A stretch of 64,000 bases of DNA from Bacteroidota bacterium (GTDB lineage Bacteria > Bacteroidota > Ignavibacteria > 0-14-0-80-59-12), in assembly GCA_049973045.1 (NCBI GenBank), contig JBMFJZ010000005.1, positions 71,966 through 135,965 on the forward strand, in the 5' to 3' direction. Made by a program: the position numbers and the translations under genes. Under the pieces are notes generated by a model, which was not told where the DNA came from, made no database searches, and saw only the letters and a list, made by a program, of their open reading frames with translations. Below, piece by piece: positions 35,390-50,134 of the stretch; position 1 is the first letter of the stretch; each line of letters begins with the position of its first letter.

Positions 35390-35424
35390 GTTGAAAATTA
35401 ATGGTTTTTATTTTCCCCGTTGTT

Positions 35425-35880: not shown

Positions 35881-35962
35881 AAATACCTCCTCCTTCTATT
35901 GTTTTAATCTCCTCGTCTGTTAAACTATAAAGTTTATAAACCAGCTGGTCAATTGGGGCTTC
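35881..35962 (-). pseudogene. orphan 3' end of a methyltransferase gene (copy A)
   Basis: Minus strand translates as ..IDQLVYKLYSLTDEEIKTIEGGG. This is the same tail as the 1275-aa MTase (IDKLVYKLYDLTEEEIRIIEGG), and no upstream gene body is present. Confidence 0.65.
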
Positions 35963-35965
35963 AAG

Positions 35966-36688: not shown

Positions 36689-36707
36689 TCCACCTTATTA
36701 AATAATT

Positions 36708-37433
36708 TCAAGCATTTAAAGAAACTTTGTGTGGATATTCGTTATATATTTTACCGTTTAATTTCCTTCCGTTTTTATGGTTAAAGACACCACCCCATTG
36801 CTTGAAAAAGAAAGAAATACCATTTTTTCTGCATTGACGGTAGATTTCCATAACCCACTCTTTTTTCATTGGTCGGGCACCTGGACCCGACTCCCCACCT
36901 ACAATTACCCAATCAATTCCCTTTGTTGGGAATTCAGAAATCGGTCCTAAAAGCGGTTCAAAAGAAATAAATTTAATCTTTGCTGGTGTCTGAAGGAGAT
37001 GATTAATTCTGTAAATGTAATCCGAGTTTTCCACAGAAACACCCATCCATATATTATCTGTCCATTCAACATGATTACAAACTTCAAGAAGTCGCTCTGA
37101 CCTTTTGGTTAAAACCTGAAATGTCAGATGTTTTGCTTTGTTCATCACTTTAAAAACCTCTTTTATGAAATCAAGTGGAACATCTTCGTGGAAAAGGTCT
37201 GACATGGAATTGACAAAAACGAAAGCAGGACCTTTCCAACGAAAAGGAACAGAAAGAAGGTCAGGATGCAAAGTCACTTCAAAACCGTTTTTGTATCTCG
37301 GATTTCCCATAAGCTGAAGACGCTTTGCGAAACGCTCAGCATAACAATTTTTGCACCCTGTACTTATTTTAGAACAACCTGTTACAGGATTCCAAGTGTA
37401 ATGTGTCCATTCTATTTTTGATTTTCCAGCCAT
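36708..37433 (-). CDS. DUF5131 / phage Gp37-Gp68 family protein (three-Cys motif)
   Basis: 241 aa starting KIEWTHYTWNPVTGCSKISTGCKNCYAE (C-x6-C-x2-C), then VFVNSMSDLFHE, WMGVSVE, FISFEPLLGPI, DWVIVGGESGPGARP and FFFKQWGG. Confidence 0.8.
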   Translation of the reverse strand: MAGKSKIEWTHYTWNPVTGCSKISTGCKNCYAERFAKRLQLMGNPRYKNGFEVTLHPDLLSVPFRWKGPAFVFVNSMSDLFHEDVPLDFIKEVFKVMNKAKHLTFQVLTKRSERLLEVCNHVEWTDNIWMGVSVENSDYIYRINHLLQTPAKIKFISFEPLLGPISEFPTKGIDWVIVGGESGPGARPMKKEWVMEIYRQCRKNGISFFFKQWGGVFNHKNGRKLNGKIYNEYPHKVSLNA

Positions 37434-37436
37434 AGT

Positions 37437-38342
37437 TTATCCCAACTTTTTTAATATATCATTGGCAATTTTTAATGCAGTTTTTGATGCCTTTTCATTT
37501 GCACATGCAAAAATGAGCAAGTAAATAGGATTTCGTTTGGAATTATAAAGTGCGCGTGGTTCTGATACAGCATAAAAGATTTCTTTTAACCTTTTGCAAA
37601 AATAATTGCCAATTTTAGTAATAGGAACTTTTTCTACATTCGTTTCAGGTCCAAAAAGTGTTTCTTTTTTGCTAACTTTATAAAATTCATTATACCATTC
37701 CTCCGTTCCAAAAAGTTTATTTAATCTCTCTCGTCTTTTATTGTCTATATTTCCATCTCTTTTAAGCAAGCGGTTTACGGCTACTCCTAAAGGGAACAAT
37801 ATCCAGCAGTCAATAGCCTTTGTTTTTGCTATCATTTCAAGGGTTTTCCATTCTACTTGCATTCCGTATGGGTCCAAAAAGACAAGAGCACGTTTTTTAC
37901 TCCAATCAGTAATCCTACAAAGTTTTTGAAGATATGAATTAGCGTCTTCATTTACAATTTTTGTTCTATCTTTTATATGTGAGAATTCTTTTTTTAAATT
38001 TTCTAATTCTTCACATTTTCCTTTATCCAATTCAATAAAGATAAATTCATCAAATGTTTCACCAGTTTTGTTATACATAGATTGTAAAGCAATTCGTGGA
38101 GAACCATCTAAAAATTTCCGAGTTTCTTCTTCAAAGAAAACGGCAAGATATCCTTTTTCCTCTGTATCTACTGCTCTATACCCTGGACCGGCGAAGGCGT
38201 CTATATAGATAATCTTATAATACCTCGCTTTTTCATTGCCCTTCATAATTGTTAGATAAGCATTTAAATATTTTTTCAAAGCTTCAAGTTTTTCTTCAGT
38301 CCAATCTCCTCCGAATGAATTTTTCTTTCTTACCATACTCAT
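37437..38342 (-). CDS. three-Cys-motif partner protein TcmP-like (SAM-MTase-like motif I)
   Basis: The track ORF 37437..38582 is a read-through of upstream remnant DNA, and the real start is probably MSMVRKKNSF at 38342. Key blocks are GGDWTEEKLEALKKYL and IYIDAFAGPGY (a D-x-F-A-G-x-G MTase motif-I look-alike). It ends 3 nt before the DUF5131 gene. Confidence 0.7.
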   Translation of the reverse strand: MSMVRKKNSFGGDWTEEKLEALKKYLNAYLTIMKGNEKARYYKIIYIDAFAGPGYRAVDTEEKGYLAVFFEEETRKFLDGSPRIALQSMYNKTGETFDEFIFIELDKGKCEELENLKKEFSHIKDRTKIVNEDANSYLQKLCRITDWSKKRALVFLDPYGMQVEWKTLEMIAKTKAIDCWILFPLGVAVNRLLKRDGNIDNKRRERLNKLFGTEEWYNEFYKVSKKETLFGPETNVEKVPITKIGNYFCKRLKEIFYAVSEPRALYNSKRNPIYLLIFACANEKASKTALKIANDILKKLG

Positions 38343-38456
38343 TACACACTCCTTGCTTTTTCTAATCTTGTTTTTTACAATGTGCGAATGATTATTCGCC
38401 CCTACCCAATATACTTCTTTTCGTTCTTGTTCTGTCAAGCCAAGGGCATCAAAAAC
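38340..38456. repeat. ~115-bp duplicated junction module, copy A (degenerate REP-like hairpin + RBS + ATG)
   Basis: Aligns by eye at roughly 90 percent identity to 39295..39406. It contains gcgaatgattattcgcccctac (38384..38405), in which the left arm of the hairpin is partly mutated. Confidence 0.8.
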
Positions 38457-38578
38457 AATATCATCAAGGGCTTTTCTATCGGGTAATGGATTTTTTCGCA
38501 GGCTACCTTTATCTCCCTTTTTCAGTCCAAGCCATTTTGTGCCGAGTTGGGGTAGGTTAAAAATAATTTCGTCATTCC

Positions 38579-38980
38579 TCAAATTTCATATCCTAAACTC
38601 TTTAAAAATTTTTCACATTCTTTTATAAATTCTTCGGCCTTTTCAATTATTTCCGATGTCCTTTCTAAACTCTGCATAAAAATAATTTCATAATCACCTT
38701 TTTGTCTTTCACTAAACGCTTCAATTATGTAACTATACAATTTTTCAGGTAACAATCCGGTTTTTATAAACTCTTTTCCAAAGAAGGAAATAACCGCTGT
38801 ATGTTTACTAAATTTTAAATCTTTTGTAAGCAAAATTGCGGTGGCACAGTAAAACATAGAATAGTATGCCCGTGATCCCGCAAAATCATAATCTCCTGCA
38901 TCTCTTAATAATTTCGCTGAATTTAAACTTCTCTCTGCTTTTTGAAGGAGTGCTTTTATTTCTTCTTGATACTTTTTCAT
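38579..38980 (-). CDS. HEPN domain protein
   Basis: 133 aa (AERSLNSAKLLRDAGDYDFAGSRAYYSMFYCATAILL..FSKHTAVISFFGKEF) with a 4-nt overlap with the upstream MNT gene. Confidence 0.75.
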   Translation of the reverse strand: MKKYQEEIKALLQKAERSLNSAKLLRDAGDYDFAGSRAYYSMFYCATAILLTKDLKFSKHTAVISFFGKEFIKTGLLPEKLYSYIIEAFSERQKGDYEIIFMQSLERTSEIIEKAEEFIKECEKFLKSLGYEI

Positions 38981-39297
38981 ATTTCTATTCCTTCTCCTTT
39001 CACGCTTTGCAAAAATGGGGTATTAAAGGAGTTAAAAATTGCATCAGGGTAGTCTATGAGAGAGATGACCACATCATTTTCCAAAGAAATATTAGAGACA
39101 GTGGTGTATATTTTTTCCTTTTCCTCTTTAGTAAGTTCTTCGCGCACCAATAATAACAAGTCGATATCGGAGAATTCTTTCTCTTCTCCCCTTGCATAAG
39201 AGCCAAAAAGGATAAGTTTTACAAATTTAAATCCCAATATCGCGATTATTTCCCTTTTCAGCTCATTTAGAATTTTATTTTTTCTTTCCTTATCCAT
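38977..39297 (-). CDS. minimal nucleotidyltransferase (MNT) domain protein
   Basis: ~106 aa with an ATG at 39297 (the track starts at GTG 39300). NTase motif is LFGSYARGEE..SDIDLLLLV. Confidence 0.75.
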   Translation of the reverse strand: MDKERKNKILNELKREIIAILGFKFVKLILFGSYARGEEKEFSDIDLLLLVREELTKEEKEKIYTTVSNISLENDVVISLIDYPDAIFNSFNTPFLQSVKGEGIEI

Positions 39298-39406
39298 CAC
39301 ACACTCCTTGCTTTTTCTAATCTGTTTTTTTACAGGGGCGAATGATTATTCGCCCCTACCAAATACTTTTCGCTCTTCTTCCGTCAAGCCAAGGGCATCA
39401 AAAAAC
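39295..39406. repeat. ~115-bp duplicated junction module, copy B, with an intact GTAG-headed REP-like hairpin
   Basis: ggggcgaat-gatt-attcgcccc followed by tac (39335..39359). On the minus strand this reads GTAGGGGCGAATAATCATTCGCCCC. Downstream on the minus strand lie AAGGAG and then the ATG of the MNT gene. Confidence 0.85.
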
Positions 39407-39415
39407 TTTTTATCT

Positions 39416-39658
39416 CTAACTTACTTCAATTATTTTTATCTCTTCCTCTGTTAAATCATATAGTTTATAAACCAGTTGGTCAATTTCTTCTTCAAGTTCT
39501 TTTACTTTTGCCTCATTCCCCTCTTTTAGAGGGGTGTCTTCAACTACCCCGTCCGCCTTTGGCGTCCACCCCTTCACAGAAGGGGAATTGAGGGAGAGGA
39601 TTTGATCTACAAGGTTTTCTATTTCACTGACTATCGGATGGGTTATTTCATTGCTTGT
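39416..39658 (-). pseudogene. orphan 3' end of a methyltransferase gene (copy B) carrying extra GC-rich hairpins
   Basis: Minus strand translates as ..VSEIENLVDQILSLNSPSVKGWTPKADGVVEDTPLKEGNEAKVKELEEEIDQLVYKLYDLTEEEIKIIEVS*. The intact MTase C-terminus reads QQIENLVSQILSLTQSPDYETNPQKQAKVKELEKEIDKLVYKLYDLTEEEIRIIEGG. Confidence 0.75.
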
Positions 39659-39678
39659 TATTTATGATTAGGGAACAT

Positions 39679-40179
39679 TTAAAACTTCCAACCTTCCCTT
39701 CTAAAGAAATCAATTAGACTGATGCATTCAATACCAAAATTTCGGCAGACAGCGGGTATCCTATTAGGTTTTGTTGGAGATTCCTCAGAGATAACTATAT
39801 ATTTGTTTCTCATATGCTCAAATTTACCTCTTTCTTCCTCATTTTTCACAATAGCAAGTGCAATCAACCACGGGTCAGCATTTGGCTCATCAGGTTTATC
39901 TGACTTTGATAAGAATGGATAGTTCTTCAAGGTTTCTTGAACTTTTTCTACCTGGTTTTTATCTGGTTTTTTAAACATTCTTTTTCTGAGCTTATCACGT
40001 GCCCATTTTTTAAGTTCATCATCCCCTTTTTCAATTTCTTTTTTTACTTCAATCGGCGCTATTAGTCTTTCGTTTTTACAAAGTTCATCTATTCTTTTCC
40101 ATAATCCAGAGAAGATATCTTTGGGGTATTTTTCTTTCATATCAATCAAACTGCTTGTATCAATGCAGTAAATATCCAC
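39679..40179 (-). CDS. DUF4411 family PIN-like protein
   Basis: 166 aa starting MDIYCIDTSSLIDMKEKYP and ending NRIPAVCRNFGIECISLIDFFRREGWKF, the typical DUF4411 layout. It starts 13 nt after the ImmA/IrrE gene. Confidence 0.75.
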   Translation of the reverse strand: MDIYCIDTSSLIDMKEKYPKDIFSGLWKRIDELCKNERLIAPIEVKKEIEKGDDELKKWARDKLRKRMFKKPDKNQVEKVQETLKNYPFLSKSDKPDEPNADPWLIALAIVKNEEERGKFEHMRNKYIVISEESPTKPNRIPAVCRNFGIECISLIDFFRREGWKF

Positions 40180-40192
40180 ATATTACTCCAGC

Positions 40193-41329
40193 TTATAACC
40201 CTGCGGATTCTGCCACCTTTTTCAAGCTATCCAACTTCAGGGATAAATACTCTATAGCCTCTGCAGTAGTTATAAAACCGCTCTTCTTTGAATTCATTAC
40301 AAGTGATATGAATTTTTTTCCCTTCTCCTGCAGGCATTTCTTATATGAAGGCAAATAAAAGCTAACACCTTTTTCTTTTTCATACTGGCTTCTAATTTTT
40401 GATACGGCATTTTCATATTCTTCCCATGTCACTAAATTCAATGTTCTGAACCTCGTAAGCATTGCATGTTTGCTAACCCTGAATTTATTTGATAAATTAT
40501 TTAATACTTCTAAACCAGCTCTTTTAAATATAAAGTCCTGATATTCCTTTTCTGTTTTTAAAACATCTTGCGGGATTAAAAGTTCCGACGCAAATTCATT
40601 ACACCAGTTTTCTACATCCATGTTTTGATTAGTTAAAGTTTGCTCATTTGCATAAATTTCTGGTATTTCCAATAGAATATGTGCGTATTCATGAAAAAGC
40701 GTAAAGATTCTTGCAAGGATATTATCAGTGGTGTTCAAAACAATTAGAGGTGGTTCTTTATCCATAAGAGAAAACCCTCTTGCATCCTCAAGAGGAAATC
40801 TAAATTGAAAAACTAAAATATTTAAATTTTCTATAGCTTTCCTCCATTCGTTAAATGCCATATAGGCATTTTTAAATTCAAATTGTTTCTCAATTGAGAT
40901 GCTAATCCTGTCCCTTTCTCGTCGTGCAATAACCGATGGGTCCTCACTTATGGAAGCTGAAGTAATGTCTGGTTTAGTAGAAACGTCAAGGTTTTTCATC
41001 AATTCGTTTGCAACTGACTGGTAATATCTGGCTTTTCTTATGGCTAATCTTAATTCTTTTGATAAATACTTCTCACTTTTGGGCATAATGCGGAAGGATG
41101 TGGAATATGATGGTTCTACAGGTGGTTCTGAAAGAAGAAAAACCGACGTAGGTCTCTTGAAAAGATGAGAAAGAAGTTCAAGTTGTCTGAAGGTAGGTTT
41201 TCTTTCCCCTACCTCTATTTTTTCATAGGTCTTTATTTTTCTGGTTATTTCTTCAATGCTAAACCCTGCACTCTCTCTTGCCCATTTAATAACTTCTGGA
41301 TTAACACTAATTTCAAATGACCTTGGCAT
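40193..41329 (-). CDS. XRE-type HTH + ImmA/IrrE family zinc metallopeptidase fusion
   Basis: 378 aa with an N-terminal HTH (IKWARESAGFSIEEITRKI...TFRQLELLSHLFKRP) and the HExxH motif FTLFHEYAHILL. Confidence 0.8.
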   Translation of the reverse strand: MPRSFEISVNPEVIKWARESAGFSIEEITRKIKTYEKIEVGERKPTFRQLELLSHLFKRPTSVFLLSEPPVEPSYSTSFRIMPKSEKYLSKELRLAIRKARYYQSVANELMKNLDVSTKPDITSASISEDPSVIARRERDRISISIEKQFEFKNAYMAFNEWRKAIENLNILVFQFRFPLEDARGFSLMDKEPPLIVLNTTDNILARIFTLFHEYAHILLEIPEIYANEQTLTNQNMDVENWCNEFASELLIPQDVLKTEKEYQDFIFKRAGLEVLNNLSNKFRVSKHAMLTRFRTLNLVTWEEYENAVSKIRSQYEKEKGVSFYLPSYKKCLQEKGKKFISLVMNSKKSGFITTAEAIEYLSLKLDSLKKVAESAGL

Positions 41330-41345
41330 AGATAACTCTCCTCTT

Positions 41346-42083
41346 TTATTTATTTGATCTAAAATACACTGCTTTGTCTAATTGCCTGAATAAAAATGAT
41401 ATAAAACTTAATATATCCAAACAATCTTCCTTAAATATTGGCCAGTGGAGTGCTGGTTCATGAGCTGTTGGGTTTCTGATTGCACTCATTAAACCAGCTG
41501 ACAAAAATTTAATACCATTTTGAAAATCCTTTTCTGTTTGAGTTTCACATTTTGTTATCTTTAAAACACCTTCTGGTGCCCAAACTTCCATCATTAATGC
41601 TTGTCCATCTTTATCGCTTTTTGATTTTTCTTTTACTAATTTGTTGTACACTTTTACAGCTTCAAATACTGCATGAAAATAATTTCCTTCCTTATATAGT
41701 TTCAGGCAATGCTTGAATATGAGTGGGTGAAAATTCCTCTGATAGAATTCACGTATTGATTCATCAAGGGATAAGTTTATTCCCCCTTCTTTTAAAATTT
41801 CGTCAATCTTTCTAATCTTCGTTTCAGGAGTTATTAATCTCAAAAATCTTATTAGATGCTGATTCCTTTCATCATTATTCATCTCTTGCTTTGCTAATGT
41901 AAGTATCCAATCATAAATTAACTTCGCTCGTCCTGAGGTAGTCGCCTCATTTGGAAATTCTTCAACATTAAACTTAAAAACCGATTTAGCAGCGCGATTT
42001 ATTTCATTAATTGAAGCGTCATATTTTAGCAAATCACCTACCTGTATTGCTATTAATCTATAATTCATACTTCCCTCCTTCAA
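41346..42083 (-). CDS. TIGR02391-family protein (C-terminal RNPxAH domain)
   Basis: 245 aa whose C-terminus (GIKFLSAGLMSAIRNPTAHEP...LDILSFISFLFRQLD) matches the TIGR02391 signature. The start (42083 or 42068) overlaps the MTase stop. Confidence 0.7.
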   Translation of the reverse strand: MKEGSMNYRLIAIQVGDLLKYDASINEINRAAKSVFKFNVEEFPNEATTSGRAKLIYDWILTLAKQEMNNDERNQHLIRFLRLITPETKIRKIDEILKEGGINLSLDESIREFYQRNFHPLIFKHCLKLYKEGNYFHAVFEAVKVYNKLVKEKSKSDKDGQALMMEVWAPEGVLKITKCETQTEKDFQNGIKFLSAGLMSAIRNPTAHEPALHWPIFKEDCLDILSFISFLFRQLDKAVYFRSNK

Positions 42084-45000
42084 TTATCCTTATCTCTTCC
42101 TCTGTTAAATCGTAAAGTTTATAAACCAACTTATCTATTTCTTTTTCAAGTTCTTTAACTTTTGCTTGTTTTTGTGGGTTTGTTTCGTAGTCCGGAGATT
42201 GGGTGAGGGAGAGGATTTGGGAGACAAGGTTTTCTATTTGCTGGACTATGTGCTGGTTTTGAGGGGTGATTTTCTTTATCGGCAGTTTCCCAATATAATA
42301 TTCATCAAAATCCATTGTCCTTATCGCTCTATTATAAACAAACCAGTAATAAAACCATTCTGCCAGCCGTGAGTTCAAAATTCCAAGTATATATTCATAT
42401 GAAAATATGTTGTCAGTTAAAAATGTATTCATGACTGTGTCAAGAGTTAGGAAACCATCTTTGTCATAAGTTGCCATTATGATTATCCTATCAAATGGGT
42501 TCATAACATGAGCAACAATTCTTTGAGAAATTATTTTTGGTCTCATTAGTGCCTGAATTTTTTTATTTTTTAACTCAGTTTTATCCAATTTTATATAATC
42601 AATCTTTCCATATATTTTATACTTACCAATGTTTTTACCTTTCAATATTATAACTTCTCCCTTATCTATGACTCTTTTCTGAAATGGCAATCCCCTAAAA
42701 GTTCTTGAAATTGATGATAATGGAAGAGAGTTTTCTTTAATTTTATAAAGAATACTTTTCTTAAAGTCATCCAGGTAGATAGGTATGATATTAAAATTAC
42801 AAGAGTCGCTAAGTGACACCTTGCCTAAGTATTTAATATTTTTTTCCCAGCCTTCAAATGTGAAGAATTCATAATCCGTTTGTTGAATATTACTTTTAAA
42901 AATAATGATTACCTGTTCTAATAAAACCTCTTCAAATGCCTTGCTCACATCCACAATGTCTATAAGAAGGTTTCTATTTAATACAAAACTTCTTGTTTTT
43001 TCCCATCCTTCTACGTAAGTAAGACTTTTGGGAACTATGTAGGCTACTATGCCTTTGAGATTGGTAATGTGAGTAGCTCTTTCAATAAAGAAAGATGCTG
43101 AATTTTTTCTGGAGTCAAAATACTTGTAATTGGCTACGAGTTTATTTCTATTACTTAAAATTCCACTATACGGTGGGTTGGCAATTACAATATCAAAACC
43201 GCCAGGAATAATTACAGGTTCAAATGCTGTTTCAATGGTTACAGAGGGCTGAAGCTGTGCAGAGGGCTGAAACTGTGCAGAGGGCTGAAGCCCTCTGTTG
43301 AGGGGAGGTAGATTGTGCTTTAGATGATTGTTCTCTGTATATCTGATGGCGTTGTAAAGGTGGTCTTCACTTTCAAGATAAGTATGGCTGTATCCGTCTG
43401 ACCATATTTTTGTTTGTCTTCCTTTGCCTTCAACAGACAGCTTTAGCTGTCTGGCAAGATAAAACGAAGAATATCCTTTTAACTGGCGAACAATCTCCTG
43501 TAACTCTTCTTCTTCACAAACAACTACACAGTGAACATGGTCCGAAAGCACATTACCCGCAAGCACCCTGTATCCAGCATCTTTGATTTTTTTATTCAAT
43601 GCCTCACATACAATCTTTCTCATTTCATCTGTTAAGATCACCGGCTCCCCAATTTTTATTCCGTATTCTACAACTTCTTCTTTTACCCTGCTGTTGTGTG
43701 TTACCCATGTCACAAGATATGCTTTCCATTTTTTCTCAATCTTCTTTTTATGAAAAACCTCTGAAAAATAAACCTCAAAGTCAAATTCTTTATGTCCCTT
43801 TGTGATTTCAAAAATTAGTTTCTCAATCTCTCTTTTTAATTCTTGCTTTTTTGTAGGGTTTGTTTCACTAAAATACTTTTGTTTTAATTCTTCAAGTTTT
43901 TTAAATGCATTGGCATTAAATAAATCTTTTTCAACTTCCAAAAGCGAATCCCCACAGACAACCTTATAATCAAGGTTCGGAAGTGGCTTTATGTTATAAA
44001 AATCTTCTTCATCTACAATCATAGAAAGCCAGAACCTGAGTTTGCAGATTTCAACTGAACCTGCGTCAATGTCAACACCATAAAGTGAGTTTTCTATACA
44101 ATGGCGCTTGAGTTCATAGGATGTCAATTTACTGCCTGACTCTTGCCCCACTCCCTGTGCAGGTCCCTCTGCAACCCCCCGCTTAAGCAGGGGGTTGAAT
44201 GATAAGGAGTTGAGATAAACAGAAAGCAGGATTCTCAACTTTACAATCTCGTGCATCATACCTATTGGAAAGGCACCAGAGCCAACTGCTGGGTCACATA
44301 CTTTTATATCAGCAAGCAATCTATCAATTTCTTTTGCATTTTCTATTATGCTTTCAGGTATCTTATGTTCATACTTTGTTTCTTTCTGCTCACCTCTTTC
44401 AATCTTGTTTCTCTTTTCAAGGGCTGTTCGCTCATTTTCTAAAATCAAATCTGCATATTTCACAAATTTTTCTATATCTTCTTTCTTTACTTTTCCTTTT
44501 AGTTCCGTTTCAAGATAATTTATTAAACTCTCCTGACACATATAATGCACAATCTCTCTTGGTGTATAATAAACACCGTATTCTTTGTTAAATTTTGTTT
44601 CCTCTCCTTTTTTACCTGATTTCAAAACCTTTACATACTCATCAAAGTTATCTGGACGAATAGCGTTCAGTTTCTCATAGATTTTTCCAAGTAGTTCCGG
44701 GTCAAGGGCAACCTCTTTTTCAAGAGGTTCTTCCTCATTAACCGTGAAATTATATCTATCAAAAATATCAAGTATTCCGTCTCCAATATCACCTTCTTTT
44801 GTTCTATTTGAATTTGAGAAAAGTTCATTCGGTAAAAGAATATCTACATTAACCCAATTAAAACCGTTTATCGGATCAAAGAGACCACCATTTAAGAAAG
44901 GTATTTTACAATTAAATCTGCTGTAATAATGGTCATCTGCACTTCTATCTGTTCTTAATGCTTCGTAAAAAAGTGGTTCAAGGATATCGTTATAAAAGTT

Positions 45001-45885
45001 TTTGTAATCTCCAAACTCTTTATGGAATAATCTTCTTATAAAATCCTTTGGACCTGTTCCCCAAGGGTTTCCTCTTCCAACACCAAACCAACCTTTCTTT
45101 TGTAAAAAATAAAGAAAGACAATTTGACCAAGGAGTTTTTTAGCAAAATAAGCACTGTTTATGTTTTTCTTTGAAAATTCGTTTTTCAGAGGGCTAAAGC
45201 CCTCTGTTGAATACTTTTTGCCATCTGGTGAAAGTAATTTATCCAGCGCATCTTTTGTTCTTATAAACAAATTCCTATATTTTTCAAAGAATTCCCTGGT
45301 AACAACCTCAACATCAAAAGCTTTTTCTAAATCCTCAAGTGAAGGTTTCCATTCATCTTTTTCAAGAATTGGTAAAAAACTACTCTGTGCGGTATGGCTT
45401 TTCTCATTTTTGCCGACTAAAAATGACCATCTTTTTGCAGGTGTGAATTCTTCTTTGACTTTGATTTTTCCTGCGGGGGTCTCTTCAAATCTATAATCCA
45501 TCTTGACAAGAGAAAAACGCCAATCTTCACTATCAGGAGAGATAAAGGCAACGAGTGCCGCGTCTTTTAACTTTCCACCTCTACTCCCTTTCAAATACCA
45601 GGCAATAAAGTTTCTTTGCATTGTCCTTGCCCGCTCAAGAGAGGTCTCTTTTCTTAATAGGACAATCAATAGGTCAATTTCTTTGTCATCATAGGAATAT
45701 TTGCCAATCCTTTCTAAAGAGTTTATGTATAGCTTGAAGGCGTCGGGGATATAGTTTCCTTGATAAGAGAAGGGCTTTTCCTCAAATGTTTTTAAAAGCT
45801 CCTTCAGAAATTTGGTAAATTGCTTTTTATCAAAAGGGTTTTCAAAAGTTTCAATTATCAGATTTTTTGCCTGTTCTTTATTCAT
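42058..45885 (-). CDS. 1275-aa gamma-class N6-adenine DNA methyltransferase (Eco57I/PglX/MmeI-like N-terminal region, TaqI-like C-terminal TRD) with an embedded Y1 transposase domain
   Basis: Family hallmarks IVFLYFLQKKGWFG, IPFLNGGLFDP and YGVYYTPREIV. Motif I is VCDPAVGSGAFP, followed by LYGVDID. Motif IV is GGFDIVIANPPYSG. The C-terminal tail is IDKLVYKLYDLTEEEIRIIEGG. No PD-(D/E)xK nuclease motif was recognised. Confidence 0.85.
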   Translation of the reverse strand: MNKEQAKNLIIETFENPFDKKQFTKFLKELLKTFEEKPFSYQGNYIPDAFKLYINSLERIGKYSYDDKEIDLLIVLLRKETSLERARTMQRNFIAWYLKGSRGGKLKDAALVAFISPDSEDWRFSLVKMDYRFEETPAGKIKVKEEFTPAKRWSFLVGKNEKSHTAQSSFLPILEKDEWKPSLEDLEKAFDVEVVTREFFEKYRNLFIRTKDALDKLLSPDGKKYSTEGFSPLKNEFSKKNINSAYFAKKLLGQIVFLYFLQKKGWFGVGRGNPWGTGPKDFIRRLFHKEFGDYKNFYNDILEPLFYEALRTDRSADDHYYSRFNCKIPFLNGGLFDPINGFNWVNVDILLPNELFSNSNRTKEGDIGDGILDIFDRYNFTVNEEEPLEKEVALDPELLGKIYEKLNAIRPDNFDEYVKVLKSGKKGEETKFNKEYGVYYTPREIVHYMCQESLINYLETELKGKVKKEDIEKFVKYADLILENERTALEKRNKIERGEQKETKYEHKIPESIIENAKEIDRLLADIKVCDPAVGSGAFPIGMMHEIVKLRILLSVYLNSLSFNPLLKRGVAEGPAQGVGQESGSKLTSYELKRHCIENSLYGVDIDAGSVEICKLRFWLSMIVDEEDFYNIKPLPNLDYKVVCGDSLLEVEKDLFNANAFKKLEELKQKYFSETNPTKKQELKREIEKLIFEITKGHKEFDFEVYFSEVFHKKKIEKKWKAYLVTWVTHNSRVKEEVVEYGIKIGEPVILTDEMRKIVCEALNKKIKDAGYRVLAGNVLSDHVHCVVVCEEEELQEIVRQLKGYSSFYLARQLKLSVEGKGRQTKIWSDGYSHTYLESEDHLYNAIRYTENNHLKHNLPPLNRGLQPSAQFQPSAQLQPSVTIETAFEPVIIPGGFDIVIANPPYSGILSNRNKLVANYKYFDSRKNSASFFIERATHITNLKGIVAYIVPKSLTYVEGWEKTRSFVLNRNLLIDIVDVSKAFEEVLLEQVIIIFKSNIQQTDYEFFTFEGWEKNIKYLGKVSLSDSCNFNIIPIYLDDFKKSILYKIKENSLPLSSISRTFRGLPFQKRVIDKGEVIILKGKNIGKYKIYGKIDYIKLDKTELKNKKIQALMRPKIISQRIVAHVMNPFDRIIIMATYDKDGFLTLDTVMNTFLTDNIFSYEYILGILNSRLAEWFYYWFVYNRAIRTMDFDEYYIGKLPIKKITPQNQHIVQQIENLVSQILSLTQSPDYETNPQKQAKVKELEKEIDKLVYKLYDLTEEEIRIIEGGKYEL
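43201..43740 (-). mobile_element. in-frame IS200/IS605-type Y1 (HUH) transposase domain inside the MTase ORF (aa ~716-895)
   Basis: The ORF carries YLVTWVTHNSRV, LSDHVHCVVV (HUH), LKGYSSFYLARQL, KIWSDGYSHTYL and YNAIRYTENNH. These are collinear with IS608 TnpA blocks YHIVWCPKYRRKV, DKDHIHILA, AKGRSSRILRQEF, TLWTNSCFISTV and VKQYIENQ (from memory). Confidence 0.75.
43242..43297. repeat. 18-nt tandem repeat (2.5 copies) ending in a perfect 9-bp palindrome, at the 3' junction of the Y1 insert
   Basis: cagagggctgaagctgtg / cagagggctgaaactgtg / cagagggct-ga-agccctctg. It encodes RGLQPSAQFQPSAQLQPS. Confidence 0.9.
44172..44197. repeat. GC-rich near-perfect palindrome in-frame in the MTase ORF
   Basis: caaccccccgctt/aagcagggggttg with one mismatch. 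It encodes ..FNPLLKRGV.. and lies within a ~60-nt GC-rich patch between motif I and YGVDID. Confidence 0.85.
45187..45206. repeat. second copy of the cagagggct-NN-agccctctg palindrome, in-frame in the MTase ORF
   Basis: cagagggct-aa-agccctctg followed by ttga, the same flank as the 43278..43297 copy. It encodes ..STEGFSPLKN.. Confidence 0.9.
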
Positions 45886-45888
45886 TGC

Positions 45889-46224
45889 TTATATCTCGCT
45901 TATTATTTGATTTATAATTTCATATAGTTTGGGTAGCCTTTCTTTTATTACTTTCCATACAACCCTGTAATCTACCCCAAAATATTCATGGATCAATAAA
46001 TTTCTCATTCCTACTACACTTTTCCATCTGATTTGAGGATATTTTTTTCTTATTTCTCTGGGAATCTGCTTTGAAGCCTCACCAATTATCTCAAGACTTC
46101 TAACAAAGGCCCTTTTAAGTTCTTCATTTTGAATAAAGTTTTCATAACTCAAGTCCTTAGTTCTTTCTATTAAGTATTCGCACTCAGTTTTTATGTCGGA
46201 CAAATAATCCCTTATTTCCCTCAT
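45889..46224 (-). CDS. DUF86 / HepT-type HEPN toxin
   Basis: 111 aa with the Rx4HxY motif [13 protein letters not shown]. It has a 4-nt overlap with mntA and ends 3 nt before the MTase start. Confidence 0.85.
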
Positions 46225-46514
46225 ATATATTGCACCTCTTGAAGGATGATTCTCCCGATGTATGGTTTGAGTGCAGATTTCATGACAAGGTCAATCTTGA
46301 CTTTTAGTTTTTTAGACAGAAAATCCTGAATCTCAATGAAAGTCCATAAATCTGGCACCTCATAGAAATCAATTAAGATATCAAGGTCACTTCTTTTTTT
46401 CTGTTTGCCTTTTAAATAAGAACCAAAAATTCCAATCTCTTTTACTTTATATTTTTCTCTAAGTAATGGCTTTAGTTCTAATAACTTCTTTTTTTTCTCT
46501 TCAATTGTTTTCAT
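46221..46514 (-). CDS. MntA-type nucleotidyltransferase antitoxin
   Basis: 97 aa with the motif [23 protein letters not shown]. Its start overlaps the helicase stop by 14 nt. Confidence 0.85.
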
Positions 46515-49500
46515 TGCTTCCCCTTGCTAAATAAAGTGATAAAATAACTTCCCTTTTTCCTTCTGTTATAGCAGAAGTCTCTGCATAATGGCTTTTAAGA
46601 AAAGCAGGTGAAATCTCTCTTTGTAGGGTCCCAATAACTTTTAATGGATTTTGAATGTCTGTTCCAAGTTTATTCAAGGTTTTTAAAGCTCTCTGAACTG
46701 TCTTTTTAGGTAATGAACCTTCTTCAAGTCGGTTTATCACCTTTTTAAGATATTCTTCCTGGTCATCTGTAAGTTGCTTGCTATTTTTCTGTGTCACTTT
46801 AAGGATTTTAAGAAGTTTTGTTGAGCTATCTCTACCTTTCTTAGAACGGATTTCTATCATCTCCTCAATTGTGGCATTAAAAAAAGCAGTTTTGTTTTTA
46901 TCAAGGAGTTCGTAATATTTTTCAAGTGGTAGTTTTGCTCTTTTTTCATCTGGGGAACTTTCAAGAATCTTTGCAGATGTCAAAAAGTCAAGTTCTATCG
47001 TGGATTTGTTACTTGATAAAAAGAATTTCATAAGGTTTCCTTTTCTAAAGAAAGTAAGCAAAGACTCTGGCGCTGCTATAGTTTCTGAGTCTCGCGAAAA
47101 AATCTTTGCTGAGCGGGCTTTCTTGGGAAGACGCTTTATTTTTTCAAAAAGTTCAGGATTCTTATCTCTTATATCTTCAATAATTCTTAAATACTTAAGT
47201 TCACTTTCTTCTTCCTCGTCTTCTGTAATGGTTTTCTTTGATAGCAGTTTGTCAAATAATTCATGGGAAGATACAGGTTCTCCCTCTGTAAGGATTGAAG
47301 AATCACCACCAAGCAATGTTAAAAATGCCTCTATTTTTGAGCGGGCAATATTTGTAAGTTCAATTTCAGAATCTGATTGTTTCGTTGGGAAAAAGTTGAA
47401 AGCATAGATTTTATCAAACTTTGTATCTATACGATTTATCCTTCCTACTCTTTGCATTAACCTTGTAGGATTCCATGGGATATCATAATTTATGACGATG
47501 TTTGAGCGATGAAGATTTACTCCTTCAGAAAGAACTTCGGTTGAAACGAGGATTCTATAATCGTCTTTAATGTTCCTTACCCTTGCATCAAAGTTTTCTA
47601 TAACTTTATCCCGAACTATCTCTGGAGAATTGCCATGGAAAAGTAGTGCTATATCGCCAAATTCTTTATTTATATTTTTAGTTAAATATTCTGCTGTCTC
47701 TTTTGATTCTGTAAATATAATTAGCTTGTTGTTCTTAAGAAGGCTATTATTTTTTAAATTGTGCGCTAGGGTTTCTAATTTGGGGTCTCTTCTTACTTTC
47801 TCCCACATTGATTTAATATCTCTAAGGTTTTGAAGGTCATCTTTGAGGGCTGTTTCAAAATCAGGTTTGAATTCTTTCGCATCATACTTTTCTGCTTTTC
47901 CTTCATCAATTAACTTCTGGACTTCCTCATCATCTCCCTGCTCTAGGAGTTCAAAAATTTTGTTAATATATTTCTTGCTTACGTAAATATTCCCTTTTTC
48001 ATATTCCTTAATGAACATCTCATAAGATTTTATAAATCTATCAATGCTTTTTCTAAAGGCATAAAAACTGCTCTCCAGACGCTTCACAAGCAGAACCTTC
48101 ATAAATCCACCCATATTCCTTTGAGACTGTGCTTCAAAATCTGAAATTCCTTTTTTTAAGTAGAGCAAAGGAGTATAACGGATATACTTAAATTCTTGCG
48201 TTATTAACCTAACAGTTTCCATGAAGATTCCATCTTCTTCATCGCTTAGTTGATAATATAAAGGTTTTGGGTCTTCTACATTCGGGAATTTGACATTATT
48301 TCTTTTTAAATCATCTTCAAAGTATTTTTCAATTTCTGTTCTTGTTCTTCTAACCATTAAATATTTCAAAACCTTATCCCGTATTTCTTTTGCATTACTT
48401 CTTGTTATATCAAGGAATTTATTATAATCTTTCTGGCGGTTGACTTTTTTTAACCTCCCCTCAAGTCTTCCGAAGAATTCTTCAAGATTTGTAACTCCGG
48501 GGATAGTGCTTTTTTGGGTATTCTGAAAGAGTTTAATCTGTGCAAGGATATCTTTTGGTGAGTTATTATAAGGGGTAGCGGAGACCAAAATTACTCTTTT
48601 TCCGCGACAAATTTCAGCAATATCTTCATAACTAATTGTTGTTTCTGTCCTAAAACGATGTGCTTCATCTATAATAATATTTTTGTACTCTCTCTGCTCT
48701 ATTAACTCTTTTGCACAATCAAGTTTACCAACAGAGATAAACTCAGCGGGAATATGAAAATCGGAAAAGACATTTGGCCAGGAACCTGGATTATTTCTAT
48801 TAAGCAGTGCTGGTGGTGCAATAACAAGTGTTCTTCCATCAAGTTGTCCTGCAAGCATAGTGGCAACATAAGTTTTCCCAAGTCCCACTACATCAGAAAT
48901 AAAAACACCGCCATACTCTTCAAGTAATTTCTTGGCGTTTAAAACTGCTTGTTCTTGATATTCAAGCTTCTTAAAACCCTCGGGTAAATATTTTATGAAC
49001 ACCTCATCCGTAAGACTCAGTTCATTTTTGAAATACTCATATAAAAATTTCAGATACAATTCGTAAGGGGTTATGTCTTGCCTCAGCCAGCTTTTTGTTT
49101 GAATTGTCTGAATATATTTTTCGCTTATATCAACTGCATCTCTCCATAATTCTTCAAATTTCTGTTTAGCAAAATCGTAGTCAGCTCGGCTCTTTAATTC
49201 AACGTTGAACTCAAGGCTATCAATTAGTCCTGATTGTGTAAAATTACTGGAGCCGGTGATAATCCTACCAACGTCTCTATCTCCCTCCATAAAGGTCATT
49301 ATATATAACTTAGCGTGAACGTGCTGGGAAGGGTACGCTCTTGTTTCTAACTTACCACTTTTTAACCATTCGATAAATTTACAGATCCCTTCTTCCACTT
49401 TTTGGCTATCTTCTGATTCTTCCATTTCTTTTTCTACCAGATTTTCAAAGACCTCTTTTGCTTCGGCATGGGAAAATCGAATTTGCTTGTTTTCACTTGC

Positions 49501-49722
49501 TGCAGTTTTAATCAAATCATATGTTTCTCTTGATGTAGAAATTCCTATAAGAATCCTTATCTTTTGAGTTTTCTCTAATGATTTATAAATGGCATAAAAC
49601 CCGCTTGTATAAAAATAACCCACGAGGCAGTCAAAAAAGCGCGAGTCCTTAATTAGCACCTCAAATCTTTCTTTAAGGGCGTGGCCAGGTTCATTTGTTA
49701 TAAACGTTAGATCACTGTCCAT
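46501..49722 (-). CDS. PLD-like nuclease domain + SNF2-family helicase fusion
   Basis: ORF 46501..49824, with the likely start [13 protein letters not shown] at 49722. The N-terminal PLD-like signature is HVHAKLYIM...[15 protein letters not shown]2/DEAH motifs are [43 protein letters not shown] and QRVGRINRI. Confidence 0.85.
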
Positions 49723-50134
49723 TTTTCGACTCCATGAGCCCCCTCGAAGCACATGAAATGGTTCAACCGTAGTTTGTGTTGATCTCACTGACATCAAATT
49801 CAAATTTTTCTTCAGCCTTTGCAACTAGAAAAATATCATTGACGGGATTAGGCATTTCCCCCTTCACCAGCAACTGCCAAACGACAAAACCTAACAAGAT
49901 AATACAAAATAAATCGGCATTTATCAAGGCGTTTTTACGAAAAATCAGCAAAAATTTCTCCAAGTGCGAGCGGAGATAGTGGGTTATACCTCGACGTTGT
50001 CGGAATGATGAAGTAAGCCCCAAACGTTTTACATATCCTAAATCTTGTAAAGGAAGTCCTGAATAACTAAATTTGTTACAAGAAAAATTTCTTGCATCTA
50101 CGAAGTGGCATAGACAATTTTCAGGAGCTAACAC

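What the first reader, a model, noticed from the sequence alone, without database searches (positions are those of the whole stretch)
43201..43740. Complete IS200/IS605-type Y1 (HUH) transposase domain embedded in-frame in the catalytic domain of a defence-type N6-adenine methyltransferase
Seen: in ORF 42058..45885, the segment FDFEVYFSEVF (aa ~701-711) and motif IV GGFDIVIANPPYSG (aa ~895-908) are separated by ~180 aa that are not MTase-like. These residues contain every block of an IS200/IS608 TnpA: YLVTWVTHNSRV (cf. YHIVWCPKYRRKV), LSDHVHCVVV (HUH), LKGYSSFYLARQL, KIWSDGYSHTYL and YNAIRYTENNH (catalytic-Tyr helix, cf. YIENQ). From memory, in Eco57I/PglX/MmeI-like enzymes the F-x-E-V-F segment leads almost directly into GGFDxVxxNPPY, so this looks like an insertion into a loop just before the catalytic NPPY. 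The frame is open across both junctions. The distal junction is the tandem-repeat/palindrome element at 43242..43297, reminiscent of the subterminal hairpins of IS200/IS605 and REP elements. Inference, option (i): a tnpA-only Y1 element landed in-frame and persists as a tolerated passenger, in an intein-like manner. Option (ii): a true domain fusion equips the MTase with a ssDNA-nicking HUH module, which would be a new effector architecture for an R-M/BREX/DISARM-like system. I know of no described defence methyltransferase with an embedded Y1 transposase domain.
Basis: partly seen in the sequence, partly recalled or inferred. Interest (0 to 1): 0.85.

Follow-up and report, generated by a model that had tools for sequence, protein, structure and literature searches.

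The report
REP-type transposase nested inside a methyltransferase
A complete single-strand-DNA transposase domain of the REP-associated (RAYT) kind, together with its DNA hairpin, sits in frame inside a restriction-modification methyltransferase gene, and the same arrangement recurs at the same spot in dozens of unrelated bacteria with no description found in the literature searched.

Summary
ORF 42058..45885 (minus strand, 1275 aa) is an Eco57I/Type IIG-like N6-adenine methyltransferase. It carries exactly 540 nt (43204..43743, 180 codons) that its closest uninterrupted homologue (about 80% identical) lacks.

The insert is a full Y1/HUH domain. Pfam Y1_Tnp scores 47.8 bits against a cut-off of 23. 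H783-V-H785 and Tyr849 are present, and the predicted fold matches the ISDra2 transposase TnpA.

It is closer to the REP-associated (RAYT) kind than to a classic IS200/IS605 transposase. Its free-standing relatives are flanked by REP hairpin arrays of the same family as the in-frame hairpin at 43278..43297. A second copy of that hairpin forms a 27-nt in-frame insert at 45187..45206.

The case is not unique. Of the best 150 cluster representatives of this Y1 lineage, 72 lie inside long proteins, and 68 of those are Eco57I-type methyltransferases. Where both methyltransferase motifs are visible, the domain ends about 3 to 65 residues (usually 3 to 6) before FDxVxxNPPY. The catalytic residues are conserved as well as in free-standing copies.

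Presence is patchy among host genes. Host and Y1 trees disagree, and one nested and one free copy share 87% nucleotide identity.

A domesticated role is not excluded. No description was found in the literature.

The parts
42058..45885 (-). Host gene: a 1275-aa Eco57I/Type IIG-like gamma-class N6-adenine DNA methyltransferase with a TaqI_C specificity domain
   Evidence: ORF. Pfam gives Eco57I (in two stretches), N6_Mtase, MmeI_Mtase and TaqI_C. PADLOC gives REase_MTase_IIG at 946.6 bits.
43204..43743 (-). In-frame insert of 540 nt (180 codons): a RAYT-like Y1/HUH domain plus a hairpin-encoded linker and a conserved tail (..AFEPVIIP)
   Evidence: Absent from the L001 gene, whose flanks are about 80% identical. 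Pfam Y1_Tnp hit. The structure model has pLDDT 85-97 over the Y1 part. Foldseek matches ISDra2 TnpA 2xm3 with TM-score (target) 0.67.
43531..43539 (-). HUH motif H783-V784-H785
   Evidence: Both histidines are present in all 72 nested representatives. In the 78 free ones the first is present in all 78 and the second in 76.
43339..43341 (-). Predicted catalytic Tyr849, in Y-T-E-N-N853-H-L-K-H
   Evidence: It aligns to the tyrosine of ISDra2 YIESQH. It is conserved in 65 of 72 nested representatives; five of the other seven are alignment gaps, apparently truncated sequences.
43278..43297 (.). REP-like hairpin CAGAGGGCT-GA-AGCCCTCTG, lying 3' of the Tyr helix and translated as NRGLQPS
   Evidence: It belongs to the same family as the REPs flanking the free relative P0124 (CTCAACAAGGGGCTTTAGCCCCCTG).
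43242..43291 (.). Tandem 18-nt repeat (2.8 copies) that reiterates the distal hairpin arm. It encodes the disordered QPSAQF/QPSAQL linker.
   Evidence: Tandem Repeats Finder (TRF). pLDDT is below 50 at model residues 365-376.
43434..43453 (.). Second palindrome, CAGACAGCT-TT-AGCTGTCTG, inside the Y1 coding sequence (peptide RQLKLSV)
   Evidence: It matches the REP arrays that flank the free relative P0121. In P0021 the internal copy is the exact reverse complement of the 3' copy.
45187..45206 (.). Solo copy of the REP hairpin (19 of 20 nt identical to 43278..43297). It forms most of a 27-nt in-frame insert (peptide KYSTEGFSPL) that all 15 aligned homologues lack.
44134..44208 (-). Small in-frame insert (25 aa) at 'site A', containing a GC-rich palindrome at 44172..44197. 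In six homologues the same loop holds a different, complete RAYT flanked by inverted hairpins.
44266..44295 (-). Methyltransferase motif I (DPAVGSGAFP), intact
43168..43203 (-). Methyltransferase motif IV strand (GGFDIVIANPPY), intact and directly downstream of the insert
46501..49824 (-). Partner gene: a PLD (HKD) nuclease fused to an SNF2 helicase. It is the conserved neighbour of this methyltransferase family.
   Evidence: Pfam and PADLOC. The same neighbour is present in L001, L002 and L005.

Best explanation
The 540-nt segment is a RAYT-like (REP-associated, IS200/IS605-superfamily) Y1/HUH single-strand DNA transposase module. It carries its cognate REP-like hairpin and is nested in frame in the loop just before the motif IV (NPPY) strand of a Type IIG/ISP-like N6-adenine methyltransferase.

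Shown:
- The module is a discrete unit that also exists free-standing between REP arrays.
- It occupies the same position in many unrelated Eco57I-type methyltransferase genes.
- Close relatives of the host gene have a clean empty site.
- The Y1 tree and the host tree disagree.
- The HUH motif and the tyrosine are under purifying selection in nested copies.

Inferred:
- The module behaves like a selfish passenger that does not splice.
- It is transcribed and translated from the host gene's signals as an extra globular domain on a loop. The model's strand order places that loop away from the SAM/adenine pocket.
- It is tolerated because the methyltransferase still works.
- It is hard to lose because imprecise deletion would kill a methyltransferase that protects the cell from its partner PLD-SNF2 nuclease.
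- The domain would bind REP hairpins in single-stranded DNA and cut and rejoin them through Tyr849, with a metal held by H783/H785.
- That activity would account for the solo hairpin copies found in frame elsewhere in the same gene.

How the module reaches this particular site is not known.
For: Identity of the domain: Pfam Y1_Tnp above its cut-off, with REP_Tyr_transpos as the best NCBIfam model. The insert profile hits the TnpA structures 2EC2 and 2XM3 with HUH and Tyr aligned. In the AlphaFold model the Y1 part has pLDDT 85-97. By Foldseek it matches ISDra2 TnpA, while the rest matches PglX, M.TaqI and CamA.

Empty site: the Thermodesulfovibrio homologue P0001 lacks exactly 540 nt, and the locus is syntenic.

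Recurrence: 14 of 20 genome loci are nested just upstream of GGFDxVIGNPPY, in phyla from Aminicenantes to Bacteroidota and CPR (candidate phyla radiation) bacteria. In the exhaustive HMM search, 72 of the top 150 representatives are nested. Of these, 64 show methyltransferase motifs and 4 more have an Eco57I hit by Pfam.

Mobility:
- Nested and free copies are interleaved in the Y1 tree with supported nodes. P0025+L017 has 100% support and L009 with the P0021 group has 99%, although their hosts differ.
- Inserted hosts are scattered among uninserted ones.
- Y1 and host distances are discordant in both directions, with Mantel r=0.37.
- Nested L007 and free L008 share 87% nucleotide identity over about 500 nt with sharp ends, and dN/dS is 0.19.
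- Free loci hold no methyltransferase remnants.

REP link: the free relatives P0124 and P0121 are flanked by arrays of the same hairpins. Hairpin stems differ between lineages while pairing is kept, and in L008 the hairpin survives a change of reading frame. The same hairpin occurs in multiple copies on some low-GC metagenomic contigs, once within a tandem intergenic array.

Catalytic residues: HUH in 72 of 72 nested representatives and Tyr in 65 of 72 (five of the other seven are gaps), as good as in free copies.

A second, unrelated RAYT lineage, flanked by inverted hairpins, sits in frame in another loop of the same methyltransferase family.
Against: - No left-end hairpin is seen at the 5' junction. 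The nested copy is therefore not a complete two-hairpin element, and no insertion mechanism or target motif could be defined.
- The module boundaries coincide with the boundaries of the Y1 open reading frame. That also suits an ordinary domain fusion spread by recombination between methyltransferase genes.
- The host genes are themselves mosaic. Their upstream and downstream flanks correlate only at r=0.18, which weakens the incongruence argument.
- In several lineages, such as Saprospiraceae, the DNA hairpin has decayed but the domain and its catalytic residues persist. Those nested copies form one clade. This points to long vertical retention and a possible host function.
- The lineage is also found fused to other restriction-modification proteins (a Type ISP enzyme and a Type I HsdS subunit), which hints at a functional tie.
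- Only the copies inside this gene were found in the 64-kb window. REP dispersal in this genome is therefore not shown.
- Nothing here tests enzymatic activity.
Confidence: 0.6

Rival explanations
1. Domesticated functional fusion. The nested HUH domain has become a working part of the restriction-modification enzyme. It might recognise or nick hairpins in single-stranded DNA to guide methylation or restriction. It might catalyse rearrangements of restriction-modification genes at the in-frame hairpins, giving phase or specificity variation. Or it might carry out the unknown housekeeping role of RAYTs while being expressed with the methyltransferase.
For: - Catalytic residues are as conserved in 72 nested representatives (each standing for a 50%-identity cluster) as in free copies.
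- dN/dS is 0.19.
- Nested lineages whose DNA hairpin has decayed still keep HUH and Tyr, and they form a clade with 83% support.
- About half of this Y1 lineage's diversity is nested.
- The same lineage is fused to a Type ISP enzyme and to a Type I HsdS subunit, with repeats between the target-recognition domains.
- RAYTs in general are regarded as domesticated single-copy genes (PMC5581495).
Against: - Homologues about 80% identical, in the same two-gene module, work without the domain.
- Presence is patchy and discordant with the host phylogeny.
- Near-identical free copies sit among housekeeping genes with no methyltransferase nearby.
- A second, unrelated RAYT lineage and solo hairpins also colonise loops of the same gene family. 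That pattern looks like tolerance of insertions, not design.
- The linker to the methyltransferase is a low-confidence repeat.
Confidence: 0.3
2. Ancient fusion with repeated escape. The nested state is ancestral for this Y1 lineage, and the free-standing RAYT genes are copies that left decaying methyltransferase genes. The window copy would then be a vertically inherited domain, and uninserted relatives would have lost it by precise deletion.
For: - The C-terminal tail (..AFxPxIx) that abuts GGFD in nested copies is also present at the end of free proteins.
- P0127 and P0369 are Y1 proteins that still carry decayed methyltransferase fragments.
- Nested copies are about half of the top 150 representatives.
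Against: - Free copies are flanked on both sides by REP arrays, as classic RAYTs are.
- Many independent precise losses would be needed within the window-type methyltransferase clade.
- This explanation addresses the direction of change, not the mechanism, and it still requires a mobile module.
Confidence: 0.07
3. Artefact or dead relic: an assembly chimera, or a decaying pseudodomain with no activity.
For: No read data were available. The window's exact protein is not on record in the collection.
Against: - The same junctions occur in dozens of independent assemblies.
- The insert is an exact multiple of three with no stop codon.
- HUH, Tyr and other signature residues are intact and the fold is confidently predicted.
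Confidence: 0.03

Closest known systems
RAYTs / TnpA_REP (REP-associated tyrosine transposases; Nunvar 2010, Bertels & Rainey 2011, Ton-Hoang 2012; review of families in PMC5581495)
   Same: It has a Y1/HUH domain whose best-scoring curated model is REP_Tyr_transpos. It is associated with short GC-rich palindromes. Its free-standing relatives are single genes set between REP arrays among housekeeping genes.
   Different: Here the gene has no start or stop codon of its own and is translated as an internal domain of a methyltransferase. Its REPs are read in frame. The score is below the NCBIfam cut-off (61.6 against 80 bits). The RAYT survey paper contains neither 'fused' nor 'fusion'.
IS200/IS605 TnpA (IS608, ISDra2; PDB 2XM3/2XMA, 2EC2)
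   Same: It belongs to the same Pfam family, and HUH and the catalytic tyrosine align. The fold matches with TM-score (target) 0.67. A subterminal hairpin lies near the 3' end, with about 45 nt between the hairpin and the junction.
   Different: No left-end hairpin, no second copy and no tnpB are seen. The NCBIfam IS200 model is below its cut-off (39.9 against 55 bits). The domain is embedded in a host protein and is not carried by an autonomous insertion sequence.
Inteins and homing elements in conserved catalytic motifs
   Same: It is an in-frame selfish insert next to a highly conserved catalytic motif of a gene that is costly to lose. It occupies the same site in distantly related hosts, its distribution is patchy, and empty sites exist.
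   Different: It has no splicing signatures. The insert begins with Lys, ends with Pro, and is followed by Gly. It therefore stays in the mature protein. The enzyme is a Y1 transposase, not a homing endonuclease.
Rickettsia palindromic elements (Ogata et al. 2000, recalled from memory)
   Same: Short palindromic repeats are inserted in frame in protein-coding genes and are translated as extra surface peptides. The window has this at 45187..45206 and 44134..44208.
   Different: Here the enzyme thought to mobilise the repeats is itself nested in frame, and the hosts are restriction-modification genes.
Type IIG / Type ISP restriction-modification enzymes and BREX PglX
   Same: The host has the Eco57I gamma-class methyltransferase core with a TaqI_C specificity domain. 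Its structure resembles PglX/BrxX and M.TaqI. Other hosts of the nested domain are MmeI-like enzymes or Type IIG enzymes with an HSDR_N domain.
   Different: In the window the nuclease-motor (PLD-SNF2) is a separate gene. The BREX and DISARM marker models are far below their cut-offs, and their partner genes are absent.

Membership tests
IS200/IS605-superfamily Y1 (HUH) transposase domain (Pfam PF01797) | Profile match above the curated cut-off | tested here: met
   47.8 bits for the insert alone and 43.7 bits in the whole protein, against a cut-off of 23.
IS200/IS605-superfamily Y1 (HUH) transposase domain (Pfam PF01797) | HUH metal-binding motif and a single catalytic Tyr on the C-terminal helix | tested here: met
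   H783-V-H785 and Y849. They align to the ISDra2 residues and are conserved across 150 relatives.
IS200/IS605-superfamily Y1 (HUH) transposase domain (Pfam PF01797) | HUH fold (beta-alpha-beta-beta-alpha-beta-alpha) | tested here: met
   The secondary-structure order in the model fits, with pLDDT 85-97. Foldseek matches 2xm3 with TM-score (target) 0.67.
Autonomous IS200/IS605 insertion sequence | Subterminal hairpins at both ends, more than one copy, and its own start and stop codons | tested here: not met
   Only 3'-side and internal hairpins are present, with none at the 5' junction. The window holds a single copy. The insert has no start or stop of its own. The NCBIfam IS200 model scores 39.9 against a cut-off of 55.
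RAYT (REP-associated tyrosine transposase) | Match to the curated RAYT model | tested here: inconclusive
   NF047646 is the best-scoring model but is below its cut-off (61.6 against 80 bits).
RAYT (REP-associated tyrosine transposase) | Flanked by or associated with REP palindromes of one family | tested here: met
   Hairpins lie at 43278..43297, 43434..43453 and 45187..45206. The closest free relatives are flanked by arrays of the same hairpins.
RAYT (REP-associated tyrosine transposase) | Cognate REPs dispersed through the same genome, with a single RAYT copy per genome | not testable with these tools
   Only 64 kb of the genome is available, and no copies were found outside the gene. The hairpin occurs in multiple copies on some low-GC metagenomic contigs.
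Eco57I / Type IIG gamma-class N6-adenine methyltransferase | Motif I (DPxxGSGxF), motif IV (NPPY), Eco57I profile and TaqI_C specificity domain | tested here: met
   PADLOC REase_MTase_IIG scores 946.6 bits. Methylation activity itself was not tested.
BREX PglX | PglX model above its cut-off, with PglZ, BrxC and the other partner genes nearby | tested here: not met
   NF033452 scores 83.9 bits against a cut-off of 500. The neighbours are a PLD-SNF2 gene and a HepT/MNT (HEPN ribonuclease / nucleotidyltransferase) toxin-antitoxin pair, and no BREX genes were found among the neighbours scanned.
DISARM DrmMI | DrmMI together with DrmA, DrmB and DrmC | tested here: not met
   Only weak partial DrmMI and DrmD hits were found. 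No DrmA or DrmB is present in the island.
Intein | N-terminal Cys/Ser, C-terminal His-Asn, and a Cys/Ser/Thr nucleophile at +1 | tested here: not met
   The insert runs K..KIEKK ... PVIIP and is followed by G895. No intein family appears in the Pfam scan.
IStron / group I intron carrying an IS605-type gene | A ribozyme adjacent to the transposase gene | tested here: not met
   An Rfam scan of 41500..46600 at E<=1 found only a chance snoRNA match.

The most novel reading that the evidence does not exclude
The nested Y1 domain is more than a tolerated passenger and defines something new, in one of two ways.

(a) It is a site-specific 'homing domain': a transposase module that targets the loop next to NPPY in Eco57I-type methyltransferase genes, and occasionally other restriction-modification specificity genes. 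It would use these horizontally mobile, addictive genes as vehicles. That would explain how REP/RAYT systems, otherwise inherited vertically, reach new genomes.

(b) It is an integrated catalytic module that gives restriction-modification enzymes a hairpin-directed ssDNA nicking or joining activity. Such an activity could, for example, drive programmed rearrangement at the in-frame hairpins.
Probability: 0.3. Interest if true: 0.9.

Novelty: new variant of a known kind. Interest (0 to 1): 0.74.

Why it matters
RAYTs are a long-standing puzzle. They are single-copy, apparently domesticated transposases whose maintenance and horizontal spread are unexplained (PMC5581495). A large RAYT lineage that lives half of the time as a translated internal domain of restriction-modification methyltransferases gives that question a concrete handle. 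The nested copies ride on genes that are themselves mobile and hard to delete.

It also adds a third way for selfish DNA to occupy a protein-coding gene without destroying it, beside inteins and in-frame palindromic elements.

For restriction-modification enzymology, it identifies two permissive loops in the gamma-class methyltransferase fold. It also supplies natural enzymes that join a sequence-specific HUH ssDNA-linking domain to a DNA methyltransferase, which could interest protein engineers who use HUH tags.

For annotation, such genes are currently labelled either 'transposase' or 'methylase', and both labels mislead.

Tried and rejected
- Intein: rejected, because the junction residues are wrong.
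- IStron or other ribozyme-mediated removal: rejected, because Rfam finds nothing.
- BREX or DISARM membership of the host: rejected.
- Conserved non-transposase methyltransferase subdomain: rejected, because close homologues lack the segment entirely.
- One-off accident or assembly chimera: rejected, because the arrangement recurs.
- Phage carriage: one scan of viral contigs gave only a single weak hit.
- Left-end hairpin or conserved target motif at the 5' junction: I looked across 17 nested loci. I found only a Lys-rich linker and no shared DNA motif.
- Hairpins flanking the whole restriction-modification module, which would make the module transposon cargo: none were found.
- The window's own protein in the assembly index: not on record.
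- Literature: eight accepted searches combined RAYT, Y1, IS200, HUH, methyltransferase, restriction-modification, Eco57I and Type IIG terms. None returned a paper on a Y1 domain inside a methyltransferase. That is absence from this library, not proof of absence.
- Mantel test: it gave weak correlations, but the host's own two halves also correlate weakly. I do not rest the mobility argument on that test alone.
Full report
**1. What is in the window**

The ORF at 42058..45885 lies on the minus strand and encodes 1275 aa. Pfam finds an Eco57I methyltransferase domain split into two stretches, N6_Mtase, a weak MmeI_Mtase match and a TaqI_C specificity domain. Between the Eco57I stretches it finds Y1_Tnp (PF01797) at aa 750-852. 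Scanned alone, the insert scores 47.8 bits (E=2e-12) against a cut-off of 23.

NCBIfam ranks REP_Tyr_transpos first (61.6 bits, cut-off 80) and IS200 second (39.9 bits, cut-off 55). Motif I (DPAVGSGAFP) and motif IV (GGFDIVIANPPY) are intact.

The 18-nt tandem repeat (2.8 copies) and the palindrome at 43278..43297 are real and non-random.

**2. The empty site**

A homologue search returned thousands of relatives, most of them 1050-1130 aa long and without the Y1 domain. The best is P0001 from Thermodesulfovibrio sp. 3907-1M, at 80% protein identity in the multiple alignment. It sits in the same gene arrangement: a PLD-SNF2 helicase, a nucleotidyltransferase, then the methyltransferase.

Aligning the two genes as DNA gives flanks about 80% identical. 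It also shows one window-specific block of exactly 540 nt at 43204..43743. In P0001 and the other uninterrupted relatives, EVFHxK runs straight into GGFDxVIANPPY.

The same alignment shows two more window-specific in-frame inserts:
- 27 nt around the palindrome at 45187..45206. That palindrome is identical at 19 of 20 nt to the one beside the Y1 domain.
- 75 nt at 44134..44208, containing another GC-rich palindrome.

**3. The insert is a complete HUH/Y1 domain**

Five nested copies align with the following invariant: H-V-H, the tyrosine, the following N-N..K-H, and a C-terminal tail AF.P.I. A profile of these copies hits solved IS200/IS605 transposases (2EC2, and ISDra2 2XM3/2XMA). The HUH motif and the YIESQH tyrosine are in register.

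An AlphaFold2 model of aa 500-1010 has mean pLDDT 79.8. The Y1 part scores 85-97 and has the expected beta-alpha-beta-beta-alpha-beta-alpha order. The QPSAQ repeat linker scores below 50. Foldseek matches the methyltransferase part to PglX/BrxX, M.TaqI and CamA, and the inserted part to ISDra2 TnpA with TM-score (target) 0.67.

The catalytic residues are H783, H785 and Y849, with N853 four residues after the tyrosine.

**4. It resembles a RAYT with its REPs more than a classic IS200 element**

A profile search with the insert alone found almost only free-standing proteins of 140-230 aa, many labelled RayT. The free relatives closest to the window copy lie among housekeeping genes. One example is the order uvrB, Y1, queH.

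These free relatives are flanked on both sides by arrays of short palindromes:
- P0124 is flanked by CTCAACAAGGGGCTTTAGCCCCCTG. This is the same sequence context as the window's CTCAACAGAGGGCTTCAGCCCTCTG, and the differences in the stem keep the two arms paired.
- P0121 is flanked by CAGACAGCTAAAGCAGTCTG. This matches the palindrome inside the window's Y1 coding sequence at 43434..43453.

The recurrent peptide NKGLQPLV, found after the Tyr helix in many copies, is the translation of the perfect palindrome AACAAGGGGTTGCAACCCCTTGTT. Stem sequences differ between lineages while pairing is kept. In the free copy L008 the hairpin survives even though the reading frame over it has changed. The constraint is therefore on the nucleic acid, not on the peptide.

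The window's hairpin sequence occurs in multiple copies on some low-GC metagenomic contigs. On one of them it lies inside a 138-nt tandem intergenic array.

**5. The nested state is widespread and site-specific**

A scan of species-representative genomes gave 20 convincing loci. Fourteen lie inside long ORFs just upstream of GGFDxVIGNPPY. They come from Aminicenantes, Leptonemataceae, Methylomirabilis, Ignavibacteria, Saprospiraceae, Bacteroidales, Dojkabacteria and others. Six are free-standing.

Pfam confirms the architecture Eco57I / Y1_Tnp / Eco57I. It also shows that the hosts belong to at least three subfamilies: the window type, the MmeI-like type with MmeI_hel, and a type with an HSDR_N domain.

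An exhaustive HMM search of 1.84 billion cluster representatives found 1392 relatives at E<=0.001, and 347 at E<=1e-10. Among the best 150:
- 78 are free-standing;
- 72 lie in longer proteins;
- 64 of those 72 show methyltransferase motifs;
- 43 of those have motif I before the domain and FDxVxxNPPY usually 3-6 residues after it (range 3-65);
- four more have an Eco57I hit by Pfam;
- one is fused to a Type ISP specificity domain;
- one is fused to a Type I HsdS subunit, with hairpin-encoded peptide repeats around the Y1 domain and between the target-recognition domains.

In nested copies HUH is present in 72 of 72 and Tyr in 65 of 72. Five of the other seven are alignment gaps, apparently from truncated sequences. 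This is no worse than in free copies.

**6. Evidence that the module moves**

In a bootstrapped neighbour-joining tree of the Y1 domains, nested and free copies are interleaved. Some supported clades join copies from different host subfamilies:
- P0025 (window-type host) with L017 (Dojkabacteria host), 100% support;
- L009 (HSDR_N-type host) with P0021, P0017, L007 and the free copy L008, 99% support;
- L010 with the free copy P0125, 85% support.

In the host tree the window methyltransferase groups with uninserted genes. Inserted genes are scattered among uninserted ones.

Across 46 nested proteins, Y1 and host distances are discordant in both directions. For example, one pair has hosts 83% identical with Y1 domains 41% identical. 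Another pair has Y1 domains 57% identical with hosts 28% identical. The Mantel correlation is r=0.37. A caveat applies: the two flanks of the host genes also correlate poorly with each other (r=0.18), so the hosts are mosaic themselves.

Nested L007 and free L008 share about 87% nucleotide identity over about 500 nt. The similarity starts at the codons for DW(K/Q)AYHITW and stops just after RAF(A/S)P, so the unit is discrete. Their dN/dS is 0.19. Free loci carry no methyltransferase remnants within 4 kb.

**7. A second lineage uses another loop**

Six homologues (P0006, P0013, P0028, P0046, P0116 and P0119) carry a different, classic RAYT (..NLPHW.., HVHLLIEP, YIxxNPxKANL). It lies between motif I and the LYGVDID strand.

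In P0006 this RAYT is bracketed by CACAGACATTCCTGTCTGTG and CACAGACAAGAATGTCTGTG. These are the same hairpin in inverted orientation, and they are translated as NTDIPVCE and QTRMSVLH. P0046 also has a solo hairpin insert at the window's site. The window itself has a small palindromic insert in that other loop.

This methyltransferase family therefore has two permissive loops that REP/RAYT DNA colonises repeatedly.

**8. Context**

The gene lies in a block of about 15 kb with roughly 33% GC, inside a window that averages 44.7% GC. Other genes in the block are:
- the PLD-SNF2 partner;
- a HepT/MNT (HEPN ribonuclease / nucleotidyltransferase) toxin-antitoxin pair wedged between the two restriction-modification genes;
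- a Hypoth_Ymh protein;
- an ImmA/IrrE-HTH protein;
- a DUF4411 protein.

The host is not BREX or DISARM by their marker models.

**9. Interpretation**

Shown:
- a complete Y1 domain with RAYT-like features and its hairpin is nested in frame;
- a clean empty site exists in a close relative;
- the arrangement recurs at one site in many hosts;
- trees are discordant and modules are sharply bounded;
- catalytic residues are conserved.

Inferred:
- the domain is active on its hairpins;
- the methyltransferase still works;
- the module persists as a selfish, non-splicing passenger, protected by the cost of damaging a protective methyltransferase.

Not explained:
- how it reaches this site;
- why no left-end hairpin is present;
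- why restriction-modification genes are the preferred hosts.

A domesticated role stays open. Lineages with decayed hairpins keep the catalytic residues, and the lineage is tied to three kinds of restriction-modification proteins.

**10. Novelty**

Every component is known: RAYTs and REPs, IS200-type HUH enzymes, Type IIG methyltransferases, and in-frame palindromic elements. Eight literature searches returned no paper on a Y1/RAYT domain nested in a methyltransferase. A term search of the main RAYT survey found neither 'fused' nor 'fusion'. Public annotations call such proteins 'transposase' or 'methylase'.

I rate it a new variant of a known kind, with high interest because it is widespread and testable.

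Noticed in passing
window 35000..50000: A block of about 15 kb at roughly 33% GC sits between flanks of 46-50% GC. It holds the restriction-modification pair and several other defence-type genes, so it looks like a horizontally acquired defence island.
   Followed up: partly
window 45889..46514 (-): A HepT-like HEPN ribonuclease (45889..46224) and its MNT nucleotidyltransferase (46221..46514) are wedged between the PLD-SNF2 gene and the methyltransferase gene. The relative L001 has only the nucleotidyltransferase, L004 has both genes, and L002 and L005 have neither.
   Followed up: partly
window 39679..42083 (-): Downstream of the methyltransferase lie three further genes. One is a Hypoth_Ymh protein resembling PD-Lambda-3_B and Aga_HEPN. 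One is an HTH plus ImmA/IrrE (Peptidase_M78) protein matching PADLOC RmrA. One is a DUF4411 protein. They may form further defence or toxin-antitoxin modules.
   Followed up: partly
window 44134..44208: A 75-nt in-frame insert with the palindrome CAACCCCCCGCTTAAGCAGGGGGTTG lies in the loop after motif I. In six homologues the same loop holds a complete, different RAYT flanked by inverted hairpins. P0070 and P0017 also carry short inserts there.
   Followed up: partly
P0364 (768 aa): This Type I HsdS specificity subunit has the same Y1 lineage at its N-terminus. The repeated peptide GKTGFIPSPVP(K/Q)LP..TTEIE appears before and after the Y1 domain and again between the two target-recognition domains. 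Repeats there might promote shuffling of those domains.
   Followed up: no
P0335 (431 aa): This protein has the Y1 domain flanked by repeats of the hairpin-encoded peptide (R/M)GLSPL, followed by a Type ISP C-terminal specificity domain. It is a third kind of restriction-modification host.
   Followed up: no
L082 2657..3173; also L109, L118, L123: In low-GC metagenomic contigs the window's hairpin sequence lies inside tandem or regularly spaced repeats of about 138-191 nt. In L082 the 138-nt unit is intergenic and also contains a second palindrome, which resembles BIME-like composite REP clusters. No Y1 gene was found in the fetched flanks.
   Followed up: partly
L017 2279..6295 and P0025: In these nested copies the Y1 domain or its linker has been expanded by long low-complexity repeats. 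L017 has STSQSPQ-type repeats and P0025 has a 60-aa D/T/S-rich block between the LKGYSS helix and KLWA. The module therefore tolerates further in-frame repeat growth.
   Followed up: no
L004 1145..5120: In the P0070 locus the nested-Y1 methyltransferase is split. A 1080-aa ORF is followed by a separate 224-aa TaqI_C ORF, which suggests a frameshifted or decaying copy.
   Followed up: no
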